The notes: generated by a model from the letters alone, not told the origin. DNA of 64,000 nt from an uncultured bacterium (GCA_964392415.1 CAYMPL010000002.1:12-64011), one strand, 5' to 3'. Counted from the first letter of the stretch, positions 20,739 to 60,628 are shown. Made by a program: numbers and translations.

Positions 20739-21604
20739 ACACAAAATGGACGTCATTCCGAGGGCGAAGCCCGAGGAATCTCACTCTTATTTTCTTTGTG
20801 TTGTGCTTCCCTTTGGCTGCAATCTCTGAGTCGTATCAGGGGACGCGCGGCTTTGCGCTTTCGGGAGCTCTGCGTGGAACGGTGAGCCTGAATGAGGCGA
20901 TCTATTTTAATCCGGCGGCCTTTGCCTTTGCATCTCGTTATTCTATTGAAGGGGGATCTTCCTTTTTGCCAATGCCAGGAGCAAAGCCTGCTTGGATCTA
21001 CAGCGGTTCTGTCATTGATTCCCAGACTAAATGGCTTTCAGGGGGCTTTGGTTATTATCATAAGACACAAGACATAGAGTCTGGCAAAAAAACCGAAAAT
21101 GCCTATCACCTGGCGTTTTCAAAAATTCTAAGTTCTGTGATCGCTTTGGGGACAACGGGAAAGTATATCGAATTTAAAGATGCTGTTGATGAGAGAGAGG
21201 CAATCGATTTCGATGTTGGAGCGTTTTTGGTTCTGACACCCAAAATCCAGGTCGGGATAGTTGGCCAGAATCTACTTTCCAGGGATGTTTCTTTGATCCG
21301 TCAGTTCGGATTGGGCTCCCGGTTTCAGGTGGTCGATTTTTTCTTTGCCTCTGTCGATCTTCTCAAAGAGGATCGGGGCTCTTTTATGGAGAATGTGTCG
21401 TTGCATACAGGGATTGAAATGATTCATGAGAATGGTTTGGTGCTGCAAGGGGGGCTTTCCCTGTCGGATAAATCTGCCAAAAATCTCTACAGTGTCGGCA
21501 TCGGCTGGTCCCAGCACAAATTTGGCCTTTTCTACGCTTTTCAGAACTCCATGGACGGCCTCGCGCGACAGACACACGCGCTGAGTTTAAGAGTCTTTTA
21601 TTAA
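20735..21604 (+). CDS. Hypothetical outer-membrane beta-barrel protein
   Basis: Signal peptide and alternating amphipathic pattern. C-terminus LSLRVFY has a terminal aromatic (OMP beta-signal). The N-terminal 15 codons are encoded by repeat R1. Confidence 0.5.
   Translation: MNTKWTSFRGRSPRNLTLIFFVLCFPLAAISESYQGTRGFALSGALRGTVSLNEAIYFNPAAFAFASRYSIEGGSSFLPMPGAKPAWIYSGSVIDSQTKWLSGGFGYYHKTQDIESGKKTENAYHLAFSKILSSVIALGTTGKYIEFKDAVDEREAIDFDVGAFLVLTPKIQVGIVGQNLLSRDVSLIRQFGLGSRFQVVDFFFASVDLLKEDRGSFMENVSLHTGIEMIHENGLVLQGGLSLSDKSAKNLYSVGIGWSQHKFGLFYAFQNSMDGLARQTHALSLRVFY
20752..20782. repeat. Dispersed hairpin repeat copy R1: GTCATTCCGA GGGC GAA GCCC GAGGAATCTC
   Basis: Member of a repeat family with 7 copies in the window. 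Overlaps the first codons of the CDS at 20735. Confidence 0.8.
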
Positions 21605-22387
21605 ATAGGTAATTCTTTGCTGTCTGGTATATGGGTTTTCATCAATCGCAACGTTCACTCCAAAAACCTCAAGAATATTTTTTTCCGTCAAAACCTCTTT
21701 AGCGGCGCCCTGCGCAAAAATGCTTTCATTGTGAATCAAAATGACATCGTCGCTCCACTCGGATGCCAGATGAAAATCATGAAGAACGATGAGAGGGGTG
21801 AGATTTTTCTTCTTTTGCAACGATTTTAAGAGTGAAAGTGTTTCAATCTGATATTTGAGGTCGAGGTGTGCTGTCGGTTCATCGAGAAGCAAAATGGGGG
21901 TCGACTGCGTGATCGCCTTTGCAATAAGCGCTCTCTGTTTTTCACCTGCTGAGAGAGTGTGTAACCAGCGATCTTTATAATCCAAAAGTCCCACTTGTGA
22001 GAGACTTTCTTCTGCAATCTTTTCATCTGTTGGAGTGGAGAAAGAAAACCCCTTTAAATAAGGGGCTCTTCCCATCATAACGAAATCGATGACAGAGAGT
22101 GAAAAAAGGGGGGAAATTTCCTGCGGGACATAGGCTACTTTTTTTGCCACGGTTTTTGAATCAAGAGATTTTAAGGGGGATCCTTCTATGTAGATGTTGC
22201 CTTCTTGTGAAACAAGGAGGCGGGAGATTAATTTAAGAAGCGTTGTTTTTCCGCAGCCGTTTGGGCCCAGTAGCGCCGTCATTTTTCCTTTTCTTACAGA
22301 AAATGAAAAATGATGGCAAATCGGTTTTACCTCATCATATGCAAACGAAAGCTGTTTTACCTCAATCGCATTCATCTCTTGCCCCAC
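21587..22387 (-). CDS. ABC transporter ATP-binding protein, iron-siderophore/cobalamin type (FecE/BtuD-like)
   Basis: Walker A GPNGCGKTT, LSGGE signature and Walker B LLLDEP. Confidence 0.85.
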   Translation of the reverse strand: MGQEMNAIEVKQLSFAYDEVKPICHHFSFSVRKGKMTALLGPNGCGKTTLLKLISRLLVSQEGNIYIEGSPLKSLDSKTVAKKVAYVPQEISPLFSLSVIDFVMMGRAPYLKGFSFSTPTDEKIAEESLSQVGLLDYKDRWLHTLSAGEKQRALIAKAITQSTPILLLDEPTAHLDLKYQIETLSLLKSLQKKKNLTPLIVLHDFHLASEWSDDVILIHNESIFAQGAAKEVLTEKNILEVFGVNVAIDENPYTRQQRITYLIKDS

Positions 22388-23319
22388 AGGATGATTAAAA
22401 AAACCGGAGCCCCCATGATAGCTGTAACAACTCCAATGGGGACTTCATAAGAAGAGATGAGCCGAATGAAGGTGTCTGAAATGACGAGAAAGATAGCTCC
22501 GCCAATGGCTGCCAGGGGAAGAAGCAGCCTATGGTCGCTTCCCGAAATAAGTCGGATGAAATGAGGGATAACAAGCCCCACAAATCCGATAGCCCCGCTG
22601 AGAGAAACAGAGATGGCGGTGAGAAGAGCGGCTGAAATAAACAGCTGAGAGAAAACTTTTTTAGGTGCAATGCCCAGCGCTTCTGCCCCTTCTTCTCCGA
22701 TCAGAAGGAGATTGAGCGAGTAGCTCTGCCGGTAGATGATAAAGAAAATGACGAGAGCCAGAGAAAGAGCGGCCATCAATAATATCCACGGATGTGGCGA
22801 CGACAAGCTCCCCATTAGCCAAAAGAGGATCTGAGCCCCTTCAAATGGGGAAAAGAGGGAAAGAATCAACGTGACAGAGGCAGAAAAGAGAAAACTTAAA
22901 ATAACCCCTGTCAATAAAAGCTGACTTTCTCTTTTTGAAAATTGCATAGCGACAAGAAGAATAGCAATGGCTGTCAGAGAACCGAGAAATGCAAAAAGGG
23001 GGATCCAAAGAAAGGAAAGCTTGAGAGCGGTTGCAAAGGTTGCTCCCAGGGCTGCTGCGGAAGAGATGCCGATAATATGGGGGTCAGCAAGGGGATTTTT
23101 TAAAATGATCTGTAAGACGGCGCCGCTTAAAGAAAGACCCGATCCGACAATGATGGCGATAAGAATTCTTTTAAACCGCAGTTGCCAAATGGCGCTTTCG
23201 AAGGGTTTCAAAAGCTCGTCAAATGGCAGTGAAACGGGTCCAATGGAGAGCGAAACAAGAGCAACGAGAAAAAGAATGGAAAAAAAAAGCAGAGAAAGAG
23301 TAATAATTTTTTTCGGCAT
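22372..23319 (-). CDS. ABC permease, FecCD/BtuC family
   Basis: About 9 TM helices and the FecCD-family conserved G-rich region. Overlaps the ATPase gene. Confidence 0.8.
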   Translation of the reverse strand: MPKKIITLSLLFFSILFLVALVSLSIGPVSLPFDELLKPFESAIWQLRFKRILIAIIVGSGLSLSGAVLQIILKNPLADPHIIGISSAAALGATFATALKLSFLWIPLFAFLGSLTAIAILLVAMQFSKRESQLLLTGVILSFLFSASVTLILSLFSPFEGAQILFWLMGSLSSPHPWILLMAALSLALVIFFIIYRQSYSLNLLLIGEEGAEALGIAPKKVFSQLFISAALLTAISVSLSGAIGFVGLVIPHFIRLISGSDHRLLLPLAAIGGAIFLVISDTFIRLISSYEVPIGVVTAIMGAPVFLIILWGKR

Positions 23320-58971: not shown

Positions 58972-60563
58972 ATGAAGAGGATTGCCCGATGGGGTTTGTT
59001 AGCATCTTTCCTCTCTTTTCTTTCTCTTGATTCCCAACCTAAAGATTTTTCGAAGGCTTTCTTAATCGAACCGCTGGTCGATTCTCCCGGAAAAAATGTT
59101 GGTTCTGATTTTAACGGTGATGGCATTCAAGATATGCTTTTCGCATCCGACCAAAACGATGATGGCCCGGGCGATAATGCCGGGGCAGCCTATGTTCTCT
59201 TCGGCACACCCCTCAGAGGGGCTCAAACATATCGGCTGGATGGAGCGGGAGTCAGTGTGACTATCCTTGGAAAGGCTGATTCGGATAGACTGGGAGCTTC
59301 CCTTGCCAGCGCAGGTGATATCAATTCCGACGGCTTCGATGATATCGTAGTCGGTGCCTTTAATAACGATGATATTGCCTCAAATTCAGGAGCGGCCTAT
59401 GTGATCTTTGGGAGGCCAACTTTTTTTCTACCACCATCCAAATGAATGGCGTAGGGGGAGATGTTACGCTTCTTGGCAAGGCTTTAGATGATGCTTTCGG
59501 GCAGATTGTAGGGGGAGCGGGAGACCTCAATGGAGATGGCTTTGATGACCTGGTCGTTGGAACCCCTCAAAATGACGACGGGGCAAGCCAAAATGCCGGG
59601 GCGGCCTATCTTTTGTATGGAGCAGCTTCTCTTTCAGCGACGTATCAGATGAATGGAGCGGGTGTTAATGTTACTATTATAGGGAAAGGGGCAAATGATT
59701 ATTTGGGATTGAATGTCATAGGAACGGGTGACGTCAATGAGGATGGGATAGATGACCTCTTAATTGGCGCGGACCAAAATGATGATGGCGCTGCAAATGG
59801 CGGCGCGGCCTACATTCTCCTGGGAGGCTCAAGCCTTGCTGCAGACTTTGATATAGCGGGGACAGGAGTGAATATATCCATTATAGCCAAGGGAGCGGAT
59901 CGTCTCGGCAGGGGTTCATGGGGTGGGGGAGATATCAACGGTGACGGCTTTGATGATGCCGTTATCGGTGCGCGGTTCAATGATGATTCTGCAGTAGATG
60001 CCGGCGCAGCTTATTTTATTTTTGGACGCTTTTTCCCCGCCGCCATTACCCTCGATCTCGCAAATGCGGAAGAAAGTGTTATTGTGACCGGGAAAGGGGG
60101 GAGTGACCAGTTAGGATTTTTTTCAGGGGGGGCGGGGGATGTCAATGATGATGGATTTTTTGATATTATTGTGGCAGGGCGGTTGAACGATGATGGTCCG
60201 GGCGGAAACAATGATGGGGCAGCGTATATCATCTATGGCAGCACATCTCTTGCATCGTCCATTCCAGCGGGAAACAGTGATGTAACATTCTTTGGGAAAG
60301 CGGCGACAGATCGATTGGGGAGCTCCGTTTCTGGCATTGGCGATGTCAATTATGACGAATTTCCAGATCTACTTATAGGCGCTTTTGGAAATGCCGATAT
60401 TTCAACGCTGGCCGGGGCAGCCTATATCTTGTTCGGGAGCGAAACCATTTCTTCAGAAATTCGAATGGATGGATCGGGCGCGAATATAACTGTCCTTGGA
60501 AAAACAGGTTATGATTATTTCGGTTTGGTCGTCAGCGGTGGGCGCGGAAATCCAGGGCCATAA
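58972..60563 (+). pseudogene. FG-GAP (integrin-alpha-like) repeat protein, secreted. One gene split into ORFs 58972-59445 and 59442-60563 by a frameshift in a T7 tract (59421-59427).
   Basis: At least 7 tandem approx 65-aa repeats (DxNGDGxxD...GAAYxxFG). Inserting one T in the T7 run gives continuous ...AYVIFGRPTFFSTTIQMNGVGGDVTLLGK..., in exact repeat phase. Confidence 0.7.
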
Positions 60564-60575
60564 CTTTTTCCAACA

Positions 60576-60628
60576 GATCCTTCGGGCTATGCCCTCAGGA
60601 TGACCGGGCTATGCCCTCAGGATGACGC
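60576..60628. repeat. Hairpin repeat copy R6 with internal tandem duplication (reverse orientation: GTCATCCTGAGGGCATAGCCCG x2 then AAGGATC)
   Basis: Overlaps the last 6 codons and the TAG stop of nadE (...VILRA*). Confidence 0.75.

What the first reader, a model, noticed from the sequence alone, without database searches (positions are those of the whole stretch)
20752..60628. Dispersed family of structured hairpin repeats with compensatory covariation (7 copies in 64 kb)
Copies at 20752-20782, 30905-30935, 30941-30973, 44837-44882, 47875-47905, 57221-57257 and 60576-60628 share the outer arms GTCATYCYGA ... GAGGRATCTC (ATCCT/AGGAT or ATTCC/GGAAT), with a conserved GA/GA internal mismatch. 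The inner 4-bp stem differs between copies but always stays complementary: GCCC-gaa-GGGC, GGGC-gaa-GCCC, ACCC-gca-GGGT, ACGC-gaa-GCGT, GGGC-ata-GCCC. These are compensatory changes, including a strand-swapped stem. This implies selection on secondary structure, as in a REP/MITE-like element or small structured RNA, rather than on primary sequence. Copies are all in intergenic spacers or at gene ends. The element may act as a terminator, as an mRNA stabiliser, or as a recognition site for a REP-associated transposase encoded elsewhere.
Basis: seen in the sequence. Interest (0 to 1): 0.8.

Follow-up and report, generated by a model that had tools for sequence, protein, structure and literature searches.

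The report
Dispersed DNA hairpins for Ssn nuclease
The window carries eight sites of a short, polar hairpin repeat that most likely folds in single-stranded DNA and is the target of a small GIY-YIG "Ssn" nuclease encoded elsewhere; it is a structurally unusual form, widespread across bacterial phyla, of a repeat–nuclease pair first described in 2025.

Summary
All seven reported copies exist, and there is an eighth at 26887-26920(-). An exact pattern gives 7 matches against 0.00 expected. Architecture: yGTC tag, 5-bp arm ATYCY, tandem G·A/G·A, inner 4-5 bp stem with a GNA loop, RGRAT arm, then C(TC). Both stems covary, in the window and in 200+ copies from more than 15 phyla.

It is not in Rfam and not part of a longer IS. 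It is not a terminator: there is no T-tract, and orientation is 16 sense against 17 antisense. It is not linked to RAYT/Y1 transposases.

The closest known relatives are the CGTC-tagged REPs (2013) and the Neisseria NTS/"SRM" hairpins, which the ssDNA-specific GIY-YIG nuclease SsnA cuts (2025). The 5' GTC and the 3' C, which that work showed to be critical for cleavage and binding, are near-invariant here.

Ssn-family genes elsewhere (52% identical to the gonococcal NTS-embedded gene) are flanked, → gene ←, by these same G·A-bracketed hairpins. The published SRM motif matches 0 of 214 such elements.

Close relatives differ in presence or absence of copies, so the element is gained and lost. 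No ssn gene lies in this window, so the partner is inferred.

Verdict: a new variant of a known kind, of moderate interest.

The parts
20751..20782 (+). Hairpin unit: CGTC-ATTCC-GA-GGGC-GAA-GCCC-GA-GGAAT-CTC. It starts 13 nt after the stop of an acyl-CoA dehydrogenase gene.
   Evidence: (47.3 bits, E=4.8e-8)
26887..26920 (-). It lies between plsY and glnA, antisense to both.
   Evidence: (38.4 bits, E=3.7e-6, not in the training set)
30904..30935 (+). Hairpin unit: TGTC-ATCCT-GA-GCCC-GAA-GGGC-GA-AGGAT-CTT. Left member of a tail-to-tail (→←) doublet in the ileS-lspA spacer.
   Evidence: 50.4 bits; the doublet is absent from the orthologous spacer of a 91%-identical relative
30941..30972 (-). 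Hairpin unit: TGTC-ATTCC-GA-ACGC-GAA-GCGT-GA-GGAAT-CTC. Right member of the doublet.
   Evidence: (47.3 bits)
44836..44882 (+). Long nested unit with a degenerate tag (TATC): ATCCT-GA-[ATG-TCCC-GA-ACGTAGT-GA-GGGA-ACCC]-GA-AGGAT-CTC. It lies between amidohydrolase and FGE-sulfatase genes.
   Evidence: weak CM hit (11.7 bits, E=1.8); the same layered design occurs in other genomes
47874..47905 (+). Hairpin unit: TGTC-ATCCT-GA-ACCC-GCA-GGGT-GA-AGGAT-CTC. It lies in a divergent spacer between a GH3 gene and a metallopeptidase-like gene.
   Evidence: (47.9 bits)
57220..57259 (+). Nested unit: AGTC-ATTCC-GA-CCC-A-GA-GCGTAGC-GA-A-GGG-GA-GGGAT-CGC. It lies in a divergent spacer between an M48 peptidase gene and a 528-aa gene.
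   Evidence: (17.9 bits, E=0.08)
60574..60605 (-). Complete unit: GGTC-ATCCT-GA-GGGC-ATA-GCCC-GA-AGGAT-CTG. It lies between convergent FG-GAP and NAD-synthase genes.
   Evidence: (44.1 bits)
60606..60628 (-). Duplicated 5' half-unit (GCGTCATCCTGAGGGCATAGCCCG) abutting the complete unit. It supplies the last five codons (VILRA) and the TAG stop of the NAD-synthase gene.

Best explanation
The copies belong to a very widespread family of polar DNA hairpins related to the Neisseria NTS / 'Ssn-related motifs'.

Proposed mechanism:
- When the DNA is single-stranded (replication, repair, incoming DNA), the strand reading yGTC-ATYCY-GA-[stem + GNA loop]-GA-RGRAT-C folds into a compact hairpin. Two sheared G·A pairs and a DNA mini-hairpin cap stabilise it.
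- A roughly 95-aa single-domain GIY-YIG nuclease of the Ssn family, encoded elsewhere in the genome, is inferred to bind the base of the stem together with the C that follows it.
- That nuclease is inferred to nick the single strand a few nucleotides 5' of the GTC tag.
- The repeats are gained and lost like MITE/REPIN-type passengers of an IS-like hairpin-ssn-hairpin unit. The →← doublet at 30904-30972 has the arrangement of that unit with the gene missing.

Shown here: the anatomy, the covariation, the strand polarity, presence/absence between relatives, and Ssn-family genes flanked by these very hairpins in other genomes.

Inferred: that this genome has such a nuclease, that the nuclease cuts these sites, and how copies spread.
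For: 1. Anatomy matches the mutational map of SsnA/NTS (PMC11893778). In that work, cleavage depends on the three nt 5' of the palindrome and binding depends most on the C just 3' of it. In 49 elements that my collection pattern could not have selected, GTC is present in 47 of 49 and the 3' C in 49 of 49. All window units have the C, and all but one have GTC.
2. One specific strand is selected. Loops are C-G(N1-2)A-G in 119 of 205 elements, against 4 of 205 for the complementary type. 75 of 205 match GCGNAGC or GCGNNAGC exactly. This is the 'mini-hairpin DNA' consensus: Tm 76.5 °C as DNA, against 39 °C for r(GCGAAAGC) (PMC13037366).
3. Ssn-family genes are flanked by these hairpins. L126 and L134 were found among hairpin-selected loci. 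L224-233 show →gene← with GTCATCCTGA…GAAGGATC. L222/223 (Thermodesulfovibrio hydrogeniphilus), L234, L243 and L244 are further cases. Overall, 13 of 17 Ssn loci have a tagged hairpin within 250 nt, and 9 of 17 have one on both sides.
4. These proteins belong to the SsnA family. They are single-domain PF01541 proteins of 96-106 aa. The L126 protein is 52% identical (E=6e-22, 94% coverage) to the 94-aa gene embedded among 16 NTS in N. gonorrhoeae. The catalytic Y6, Y17 and E64 equivalents are invariant.
5. Copies turn over. The doublet is absent from the ileS-lspA spacer of a 91% relative, and a copy sits at another position in an 87% relative. A doublet is present or absent in the groES-groEL spacer of contigs that encode the identical IleS.
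6. Close pairs are →← in 47 of 66 cases, the same arrangement as around ssn genes.
Against: - No Ssn-like ORF lies in the 64-kb window or in the short contigs of its relatives (HMM search), so the partner in this organism is unproven.
- The published SRM search motif matches none of these elements (0 of 214), and the stem is interrupted by G·A pairs, unlike NTS. Recognition by an Ssn enzyme is therefore extrapolated from gene-repeat adjacency, not demonstrated.
- A GIY-YIG nuclease alone does not explain copying and insertion. The two hairpins around ssn lie on opposite strands, which does not fit a simple single-strand excision model.
- Nearest-neighbour DNA energies do not separate the two strands. 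The strand argument rests on sequence statistics and on published thermodynamics.
- Only 4 of 120 hairpin-selected loci hold an Ssn-like gene, and one of these is a pseudogene.
Confidence: 0.7

Rival explanations
1. Classical REP/REPIN elements serviced by a RAYT (IS200-like Y1 HUH transposase) encoded elsewhere.
For: The elements are dispersed extragenic palindromes with an unpaired 5' tag. Inverted doublets are frequent (47 of 66 close pairs). Copies turn over between relatives. All of this resembles REP/REPIN biology.
Against: The tag is yGTC, not GTAG. tblastn with nine RAYT/TIRYT sequences finds nothing in the window or in about 1 Mb of hairpin loci. Eighty metagenomic loci with acidobacterial-type Y1 transposases hold 9 hairpins in 333 kb, none flanking the gene in a consistent way. 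Di Nocera et al. also found no transposase next to CGTC-tagged REPs. Only one Y1 group was sampled at scale.
Confidence: 0.07
2. An RNA-level element: the transcribed hairpin acts as a terminator, 3' stabiliser or processing site, and this is why it is kept.
For: Most window copies lie just after or between genes. RNA folds are stable (-10 to -13.6 kcal/mol). Sense singletons tend to sit close to the upstream stop, with 7 of 16 within 35 nt. In phage contig L014, 7 of 8 copies are on the gene strand.
Against: Orientation relative to transcription is random (16 sense, 17 antisense). Two window copies lie in divergent promoter regions and one is antisense. There is no T-tract downstream. There is no Rfam match. 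Triloops of GNA type closed by C:G and the GCGNAGC consensus are DNA-specific stabilisers, whereas RNA would favour GNRA or UNCG. SsnA does not bind RNA. RNA effects may still exist as by-products.
Confidence: 0.08
3. Orphan fossils: Ssn-type hairpins that once spread but are no longer serviced by any nuclease in this genome, persisting only because they are short and neutral.
For: No ssn gene lies in the window or in the relatives' contigs. In the published survey, 19% of genomes with more than 200 SRMs had no SsnA homologue. Two window copies are degenerate or nested, and one is partly duplicated.
Against: Six of the units are nearly perfect, with all stems paired and the tag and 3' C intact. 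Copies differ between 87-91% relatives, which points to recent turnover. 64 kb is only a small part of a genome, so absence of the gene here says little.
Confidence: 0.12
4. Chance resemblance, or fragments of one longer known insertion sequence.
For: None beyond the small number of copies in one window.
Against: 7 exact matches against 0.00 expected. CM E-values run from 1e-8 to 4e-6. Flanks are unrelated beyond the roughly 32-nt unit. Hundreds of copies in other phyla have the same design.
Confidence: 0.01

Closest known systems
Neisseria Transformation Sequence (NTS) / Ssn-related motifs (SRM) and the GIY-YIG ssDNA nuclease SsnA (Chenal et al. 2025, Nat Commun, PMC11893778)
   Same: Both are polar hairpin repeats with an unpaired 5' (C/T)GTC tag, a stem that starts A-T, T-A, and a C directly after the palindrome. 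Both occur in many intergenic copies, often in inverted pairs. In other genomes, genes of the same small GIY-YIG family are flanked by the repeats. The functional form is single-stranded DNA of one strand only.
   Different: NTS has an uninterrupted 8-bp stem (ATTCCCGC) and a 4-nt loop. Here the 5-bp arm is followed by tandem G·A mismatches and a separate inner stem of variable sequence, capped by a GNA triloop and sometimes nested. The tail is CTC rather than CYRG. The published degenerate SRM motif matches 0 of 214 such elements and none in the window. No ssn gene is seen in this window. Cleavage of this variant has not been tested.
CGTC-tagged REP super-family, families CGTC-1 to -4, including Neisseria dRS3 and Rickettsia RPE-4/RPE-6 (Di Nocera et al. 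2013, PMC3733652)
   Same: Shared features are the CGTC/TGTC tag, AT at the first two stem positions, a short unpaired tail starting with C, predominance of inverted dimers, a mostly intergenic location with occasional in-frame intragenic copies, and no adjacent transposase.
   Different: The described families have perfect 8-9 bp stems, 4-5 nt loops and a CCA tail. REP-encoded peptides such as VIPAKAGI and VIPWLDHGI imply GTCATTCCCGCGAAAGCGGGAATC and GTCATTCCGTGGCTTGACCACGGAATC. The window elements have G·A-interrupted stems, 3-nt loops and a CTC tail. The consensus figure of that paper could not be read, so I cannot exclude that a related variant is shown there.
REP/BIME/REPIN elements with RAYT transposases (GTAG-tagged)
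   Same: These are short extragenic palindromes with a 5' tag, recognised as ssDNA hairpins, forming inverted doublets, and behaving as non-autonomous partners of a single-copy nuclease or transposase gene flanked by the repeats.
   Different: The tag differs (GTAG) and the enzyme fold differs (HUH Y1 against GIY-YIG). No RAYT association was found here.
Extraordinarily stable DNA mini-hairpins d(GCGNAGC)/d(GCGNNAGC) (Hirao et al.; review PMC13037366)
   Same: The inner module of many copies is exactly this sequence: GCGAAGC in three window units and GCGTAGC in a fourth, and 75 of 205 elements across genomes.
   Different: Mini-hairpins are a structural motif, not a genetic element. Here the motif is embedded as the cap of a larger tagged hairpin.

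Membership tests
Ssn-related motif (NTS/SRM) hairpins | Unpaired, conserved 5' (C/T)GTC tag that gives the hairpin an orientation | tested here: met
   In the window, 8 of 9 units have GTC and one has ATC. In 49 elements not selectable by the search pattern, GTC is present in 47, preceded by T (38) or C (9).
Ssn-related motif (NTS/SRM) hairpins | Cytosine immediately 3' of the palindrome (the most critical base for SsnA binding) | tested here: met
   All window units have it. So do 49 of 49 unselected elements.
Ssn-related motif (NTS/SRM) hairpins | Match to the published degenerate SRM search sequence HGTCWYN(0-2)YYVSBRHN(0-5)WNVSBRGN(0-2)RNCYNB | tested here: not met
   The regex matches the NTS control but no window copy, and 0 of 214 G·A-bracketed elements.
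Ssn-related motif (NTS/SRM) hairpins | Genes of the Ssn (single-domain GIY-YIG, about 94 aa) family flanked by the same repeats | tested here: met
   Met in other genomes: L126, L134, L224-233, L222/223, L234, L243, L244. The proteins are PF01541-only, 96-106 aa. The L126 protein is 52% identical to the NTS-embedded gonococcal gene.
Ssn-related motif (NTS/SRM) hairpins | An Ssn gene in the same genome as the repeats | not testable with these tools
   Only 64 kb of this genome is available. The Ssn HMM finds nothing in it or in relatives L136-L141. The genome is not in the protein collection, where the best IleS hit is 91%.
Ssn-related motif (NTS/SRM) hairpins | Binding and cleavage as single-stranded DNA only, on one strand only | not testable with these tools
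   Indirect support only. The strand asymmetry of the loops is 119 against 4, and there is no transcription-orientation bias.
CGTC-tagged REPs (Di Nocera 2013) | CGTC/TGTC tag and AT at stem positions 1-2 | tested here: met
CGTC-tagged REPs (Di Nocera 2013) | Uninterrupted 8-9 bp stem, 4-5 nt loop, CCA tail | tested here: not met
   The stem is 5 bp, then a G·A/G·A loop, then 2-6 bp. Loops are mostly 3 nt. The tail is CTC (162 of 218 elements have T at +2).
CGTC-tagged REPs (Di Nocera 2013) | Inverted dimers predominate; no adjacent transposase | tested here: met
   Close pairs: →← 47, ←→ 8, direct 11. No recurrent large neighbouring gene family was found and no Y1 transposase. I could not confirm that the paper's 'HH' equals my →←.
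REP/REPIN with RAYT | GTAG tag, and a RAYT gene flanked by the repeats | tested here: not met
Intrinsic (Rho-independent) terminators | Hairpin followed by a T/U run, oriented with the upstream gene | tested here: not met
   T is 28-33% at +3 to +12. Orientation is 16 sense and 17 antisense. Two window copies lie in divergent spacers.
Any Rfam RNA family | Score at or above the gathering threshold | tested here: not met
   No hits at gathering threshold. At E<=10 there is only a spurious mir-60 hit.

The most novel reading that the evidence does not exclude
The G·A-bracketed hairpins are a distinct, previously uncatalogued, pan-bacterial class of Ssn targets. They occur in CPR bacteria, Chloroflexota, Acidobacteriota, Bacteroidota, Clostridia and even phages. 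In this reading, recognition depends on a non-canonical DNA fold (tandem sheared G·A plus a mini-hairpin cap) and not only on sequence. The →← doublets would be MITE-like derivatives of an IS-like hairpin-ssn-hairpin unit. That would make small GIY-YIG nucleases the engine of one of the most widespread families of bacterial genomic repeats, and a source of new structure-specific ssDNA-cutting enzymes.
Probability: 0.3. Interest if true: 0.75.

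Novelty: new variant of a known kind. Interest (0 to 1): 0.5.

Why it matters
The repeat-nuclease partnership (NTS/SRM with Ssn) was described only in 2025, from hairpins with perfect stems. Its published search motif misses every element of the type found here (0 of 214).

If the G·A-bracketed hairpins are true Ssn substrates, several things follow:
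- The family's range is much larger than surveyed. A capped scan found them in MAGs labelled as more than 15 phyla, and in a phage.
- The enzymes must read a structured, non-Watson-Crick DNA fold. That bears on the proposed use of Ssn nucleases as programmable ssDNA cutters.
- Cultured hosts such as Thermodesulfovibrio hydrogeniphilus offer a direct test system.

For genome annotation, these 30-nt units explain many spurious short ORFs (VILSE…, …SFRA… peptides), odd C-termini such as VILRA* on the NAD synthase here, and contig breaks in metagenome assemblies.

Tried and rejected
- Rfam at gathering and at E-value thresholds gave nothing. There are no tRNAs nearby.
- Full-text searches for the repeat as a sequence string returned only unrelated primers. 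The lead came from word searches instead (RAYT/REPIN, then dRS3).
- A crude HUH-motif regex found no hits. tblastn with nine RAYT/TIRYT sequences taken from a paper's supplement found no hits. A metagenome scan for Y1 transposases returned 80 loci with no flanking hairpins, so the RAYT idea was rejected.
- All-against-all clustering of ORFs of at least 100 aa near hairpins showed no dominant family. It did flag a small 3-locus cluster that later proved to be the GIY-YIG gene.
- Folding both strands with DNA parameters gave nearly equal energies. The nearest-neighbour model lacks terms for sheared G·A pairs and GNA mini-hairpins, so it could not be used to pick the strand.
- An exact-protein look-up of a window gene to find the source contig returned nothing on record. 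The organism remains an uncultured lineage: best IleS hits are 91%, 87% and 75% on short Logan contigs, and named hits are about 55%, Desulfobacterota-like.
- The weak CM hit at 38306-38324 is GroEL coding sequence, so it is chance. The regex hit at 29622-29656 lacks the tag and an inner stem, so it is chance too.
- The supplementary data of the Ssn paper are not held, so I could not check whether its 29 curated SRMs include a G·A variant.
- Orientation against replication could not be tested. GC skew has one sign across the window, and singletons are 4 on + and 2 on -.

Full report
**1. Is it there?**

- A regex for ATYCYGA…GARGRAT found one more copy, at 26887-26920 on the minus strand.
- The exact pattern GTCATYCYGA-N7-30-GARGRATC occurs 7 times in the window, against 0.00 expected in 100 dinucleotide-preserving shuffles.
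- A covariance model built from 5 window units and 15 units from other genomes recovers the five training units at 44-50 bits. It also recovers the independent 26887 copy at 38 bits (E=3.7e-6), the long copy at 57220 at E=0.08 and the long copy at 44839 at E=1.8. It finds nothing else credible. A weak hit at 38306 is GroEL coding sequence.
- The window therefore holds eight loci: six simple units (two of them forming a doublet), two nested long units, and one extra duplicated half-unit at 60606-60628.

**2. Anatomy**

Oriented copies read yGTC | ATYCY | GA | 4-5 bp stem + 3-nt loop | GA | RGRAT | CTC.
- Each short copy folds as two helices separated by a symmetric 2×2 G·A/G·A loop, with either RNA or DNA parameters.
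- The outer arm exists as ATTCC/GGAAT, ATCCT/AGGAT and ATTCT/AGAAT.
- The inner stems are GGGC/GCCC, GCCC/GGGC, ACGC/GCGT, ACCC/GGGT and GGTGC/GCACC.
- On the 20-sequence alignment, 90% of cells are paired. There are 32 cells with changes on both sides, against 11.5±2.3 in shuffles (0 of 500 shuffles reach it). Pairing collapses to 18-46% when partners are slid by 1-3 columns.
- The flanking GTC and CTC are not complementary to each other, so the element has a polarity.
- Sequence beyond about 32 nt is unrelated between copies, so they are not fragments of a longer IS.

**3. Context in the window**

- The neighbours are ordinary housekeeping genes: acyl-CoA dehydrogenase, plsY/glnA, ileS/lspA, an amidohydrolase, FGE-sulfatase, GH3, an M48 peptidase and NAD synthase.
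- Two copies follow a stop codon. Three units lie between co-directional genes: one sense, one antisense, plus the doublet.
- Two copies lie in divergent promoter regions. One lies between convergent genes and supplies the last five codons and the stop codon of the NAD synthase.
- This spread does not fit a terminator.

**4. The family elsewhere**

By record title these come from Chloroflexota, Acidobacteriota, Patescibacteria/CPR, Clostridia, Bacteroidota, Rickettsiales, Helicobacter, Omnitrophota, Verrucomicrobiota, Gemmatimonadota, Planctomycetota, Melainabacteria, Fibrobacter and others.

A relaxed regex finds 218 elements in these loci.
- The outer arms are complementary in 208 of 218, in four pair combinations.
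- Among the 49 elements with inner segments of 5-8 nt, which the scan pattern could not have selected, GTC is present in 47, the C after the palindrome in 49, and complementary arms in 47.
- The inner module is very often GCGNAGC or GCGNNAGC. Layered forms such as GA-G-GA-GCGAAGC-GA-C-GA are common, which explains the two long window copies.
- Loops are of the type C-G(N1-2)A-G in 119 of 205 distinct elements, and of the complementary type in only 4. One strand is therefore under selection to fold.
- GCGNAGC and GCGNNAGC are the consensus of the "extraordinarily stable mini-hairpin DNA". Its Tm is 76.5 °C as DNA but 39 °C for r(GCGAAAGC), and it is poorly bound by SSB (PMC13037366).

Further properties of the same sample:
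- Singletons between co-directional genes are 16 sense and 17 antisense.
- The bases downstream of the element show no T enrichment.
- Close pairs are overwhelmingly tail-to-tail: →← 47, ←→ 8, direct 11, with spacers of 4-68 nt. The window doublet has this arrangement.

Together these points favour a single-stranded DNA hairpin over an RNA element.

**5. Turnover**

- Orthologous loci from relatives were fetched through IleS.
- The ileS-lspA spacer of a 91%-identical relative (L136) lacks the doublet, while the downstream spacer sequence aligns. An 87% relative (L137) lacks it too, but has a single copy at another position just before lspA, where its contig ends.
- In a more distant lineage, contigs encoding the identical IleS protein differ by a →← doublet in the groES-groEL spacer (L139 against L140/L141). 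The replaced segment extends 7-9 nt outside each tag.
- Copies are therefore gained and lost on short time scales, as singletons and as doublets. No clean target-site duplication was seen.

**6. The RAYT hypothesis fails**

- No HUH motif was found, and tblastn with nine RAYT/TIRYT sequences (taken from the supplement of PMC3733652) found nothing in the window or in about 1 Mb of hairpin-bearing loci.
- A metagenome scan with an alignment of these proteins returned 80 loci of the acidobacterial Y1 type. They contain 9 hairpins in 333 kb, with none flanking the gene consistently.
- Only that Y1 group was sampled at scale.

**7. What is known**

Di Nocera et al. 2013 (PMC3733652) defined "CGTC-tagged" REPs.
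- They have a CGTC or TGTC tag, stems of 8-9 bp beginning with AT, loops of 4-5 nt and a CCA tail. Inverted dimers predominate, and no transposase is associated.
- The class includes Neisseria dRS3 and Rickettsia RPE-4/6.
- The peptides encoded by intragenic copies (VIPAKAGI, VIPWLDHGI, VIAGLDPAI) show that these families have uninterrupted stems.

Chenal et al. 2025 (PMC11893778) then characterised the Neisseria NTS (CGTCATTCCCGCGMAVGCGGGAATCYRG).
- It is bound, as single-stranded DNA only and on one strand only, by SsnA, a 94-aa single-domain GIY-YIG nuclease. SsnA cuts a few nucleotides upstream.
- Binding depends most on the C immediately after the palindrome. Cleavage depends on the three nucleotides before it.
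- ssn genes are typically arranged NTS-ssnA-NTS.
- The family (cd10448) is widespread. In Neisseria the system restricts transformation by NTS-flanked DNA.

The two positions that matter in that work, GTC and the 3' C, are exactly the near-invariant unpaired positions of the window family.

**8. Testing the Ssn link**

- The published degenerate SRM motif matches the NTS control but none of the window copies, and 0 of 214 G·A-bracketed elements. The published surveys would not have counted this class.
- A search of all fetched loci for small GIY-YIG ORFs found four among the 120 hairpin-selected loci. In L134 and L126 the gene is flanked on both sides by G·A-bracketed hairpins. In L104 a pseudogene lies 190 nt from one.
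- These proteins are PF01541-only and 96-106 aa long. The L126 protein has 6,059 homologues at E≤1e-10.
- Look-ups of three homologues gave further cases.
 - P0204 lies in an integrative element with a primase-polymerase and a serine recombinase. Its gene is flanked →gene← by GTCATCCTGA…GAAGGATC, the same subtype as in the window.
 - P0234 (Thermodesulfovibrio hydrogeniphilus) and P0240 are flanked by GTCAYTGCGA…GAAGCARTC variants.
- Fifteen Ssn-like loci in viral contigs show NTS-like, G·A-bracketed and other tagged hairpins next to the gene.
- A strict generic definition was applied: GTC, a perfect 5-bp arm, then C. Under it, 13 of 17 Ssn loci have a tagged hairpin within 250 nt, and 9 of 17 have one on both sides.
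- The L126 protein is 52% identical (E=6e-22, 94% coverage) to a 94-aa ORF of N. gonorrhoeae embedded among 16 NTS copies in 3.3 kb. I take this ORF to be the SsnA orthologue.
- An 11-sequence alignment keeps the equivalents of the catalytic Y6, Y17 and E64 invariant.

**9. Conclusion and limits**

The window repeats are best explained as a G·A-bracketed, mini-hairpin-capped variant of the Ssn-related hairpin repeats.
- Shown: the polar, strand-specific, structure-conserving anatomy; the wide distribution; turnover between relatives; and adjacency of the same hairpins to Ssn-family genes in several unrelated genomes.
- Not shown: that this organism encodes an Ssn (none in the window or in relatives' contigs); that an Ssn enzyme binds or cuts this variant; and how copies are made.
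- The →gene← layout puts the two functional hairpins on opposite strands, so a simple IS200-like single-strand excision does not follow. The authors of the 2025 paper also only hypothesise mobility.
- RNA-level side effects of sense copies remain possible.
- I rate this a new variant of a known kind, with moderate interest.

Noticed in passing
L014 (IMGVR_UViG_3300044798_000620), whole 13.5-kb locus: This is a real phage fragment, with SPP1-type portal, major capsid and adaptor genes. It carries 8 G·A-bracketed hairpins in the spacers between structural genes, 7 of them on the gene strand. Phages could carry the repeats between hosts.
   Followed up: partly
L032 6317-7151 (Dehalococcoidia MAG OZ244885.1): A 329-bp unit is repeated 2.5 times at 96% identity. 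Each unit contains hairpins in both orientations, giving 12 hairpins in about 1 kb. It is a BIME/NIME-like mosaic array.
   Followed up: partly
window 60606-60628(-) and gene 60609-62270(-): The NAD-synthase ORF ends …VILRA*. Its last five codons and the TAG stop are supplied by a duplicated half-unit of the repeat. The native C-terminus may have been replaced.
   Followed up: partly
L139 12590-12610; also L140 and L141: A hairpin-like copy (GTCATCCTGAACGAAGTGAAGAATC, with one arm mismatch) lies in frame inside ileS near its 3' end in a relative with 65% IleS identity.
   Followed up: no
L137 5565-5592 (contig end); protein table: The contig of the 87% relative stops inside a hairpin, and most Ssn homologues sit on contigs shorter than 2 kb. 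The repeats seem to break short-read assemblies.
   Followed up: no
L224-L228, about 1-5424: One Ssn-like gene with its two flanking hairpins lies inside what looks like an integrative element: primase-polymerase/D5 helicase, MerR-like HTH and a large serine recombinase. It was seen in many samples (19 contigs).
   Followed up: no
L234 9700-13100: Two Ssn-like genes lie 2.8 kb apart, with 46 tagged hairpins in 20 kb. There are also runs of half-units (…CGCTCGCAATGAC) spaced about 20 nt apart. This is an unusually dense cluster.
   Followed up: no
L045 2590-2650: This Ssn-like gene is preceded by an untagged perfect palindrome, ATCCTGAATTCAATTCAGGATCTC, in which the 'GA' is Watson-Crick paired. 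It may be an intermediate between the perfect-stem and G·A-bracketed forms.
   Followed up: no
PLSDB records NZ_CP119140.1 and NZ_CP119142.1 (L235): Two 2.17-Mb Neisseria gonorrhoeae chromosomes are filed as plasmids in the plasmid collection. This was useful here, because it gave access to the gonococcal ssnA locus.
   Followed up: yes
window 1-64000: GC skew is positive in every 8-kb bin, so the window probably lies within one replichore. The organism is an uncultured lineage: the best IleS matches are 91%, 87% and 75% on short Logan contigs, and about 55% to named Desulfobacterota-like MAGs.
   Followed up: partly
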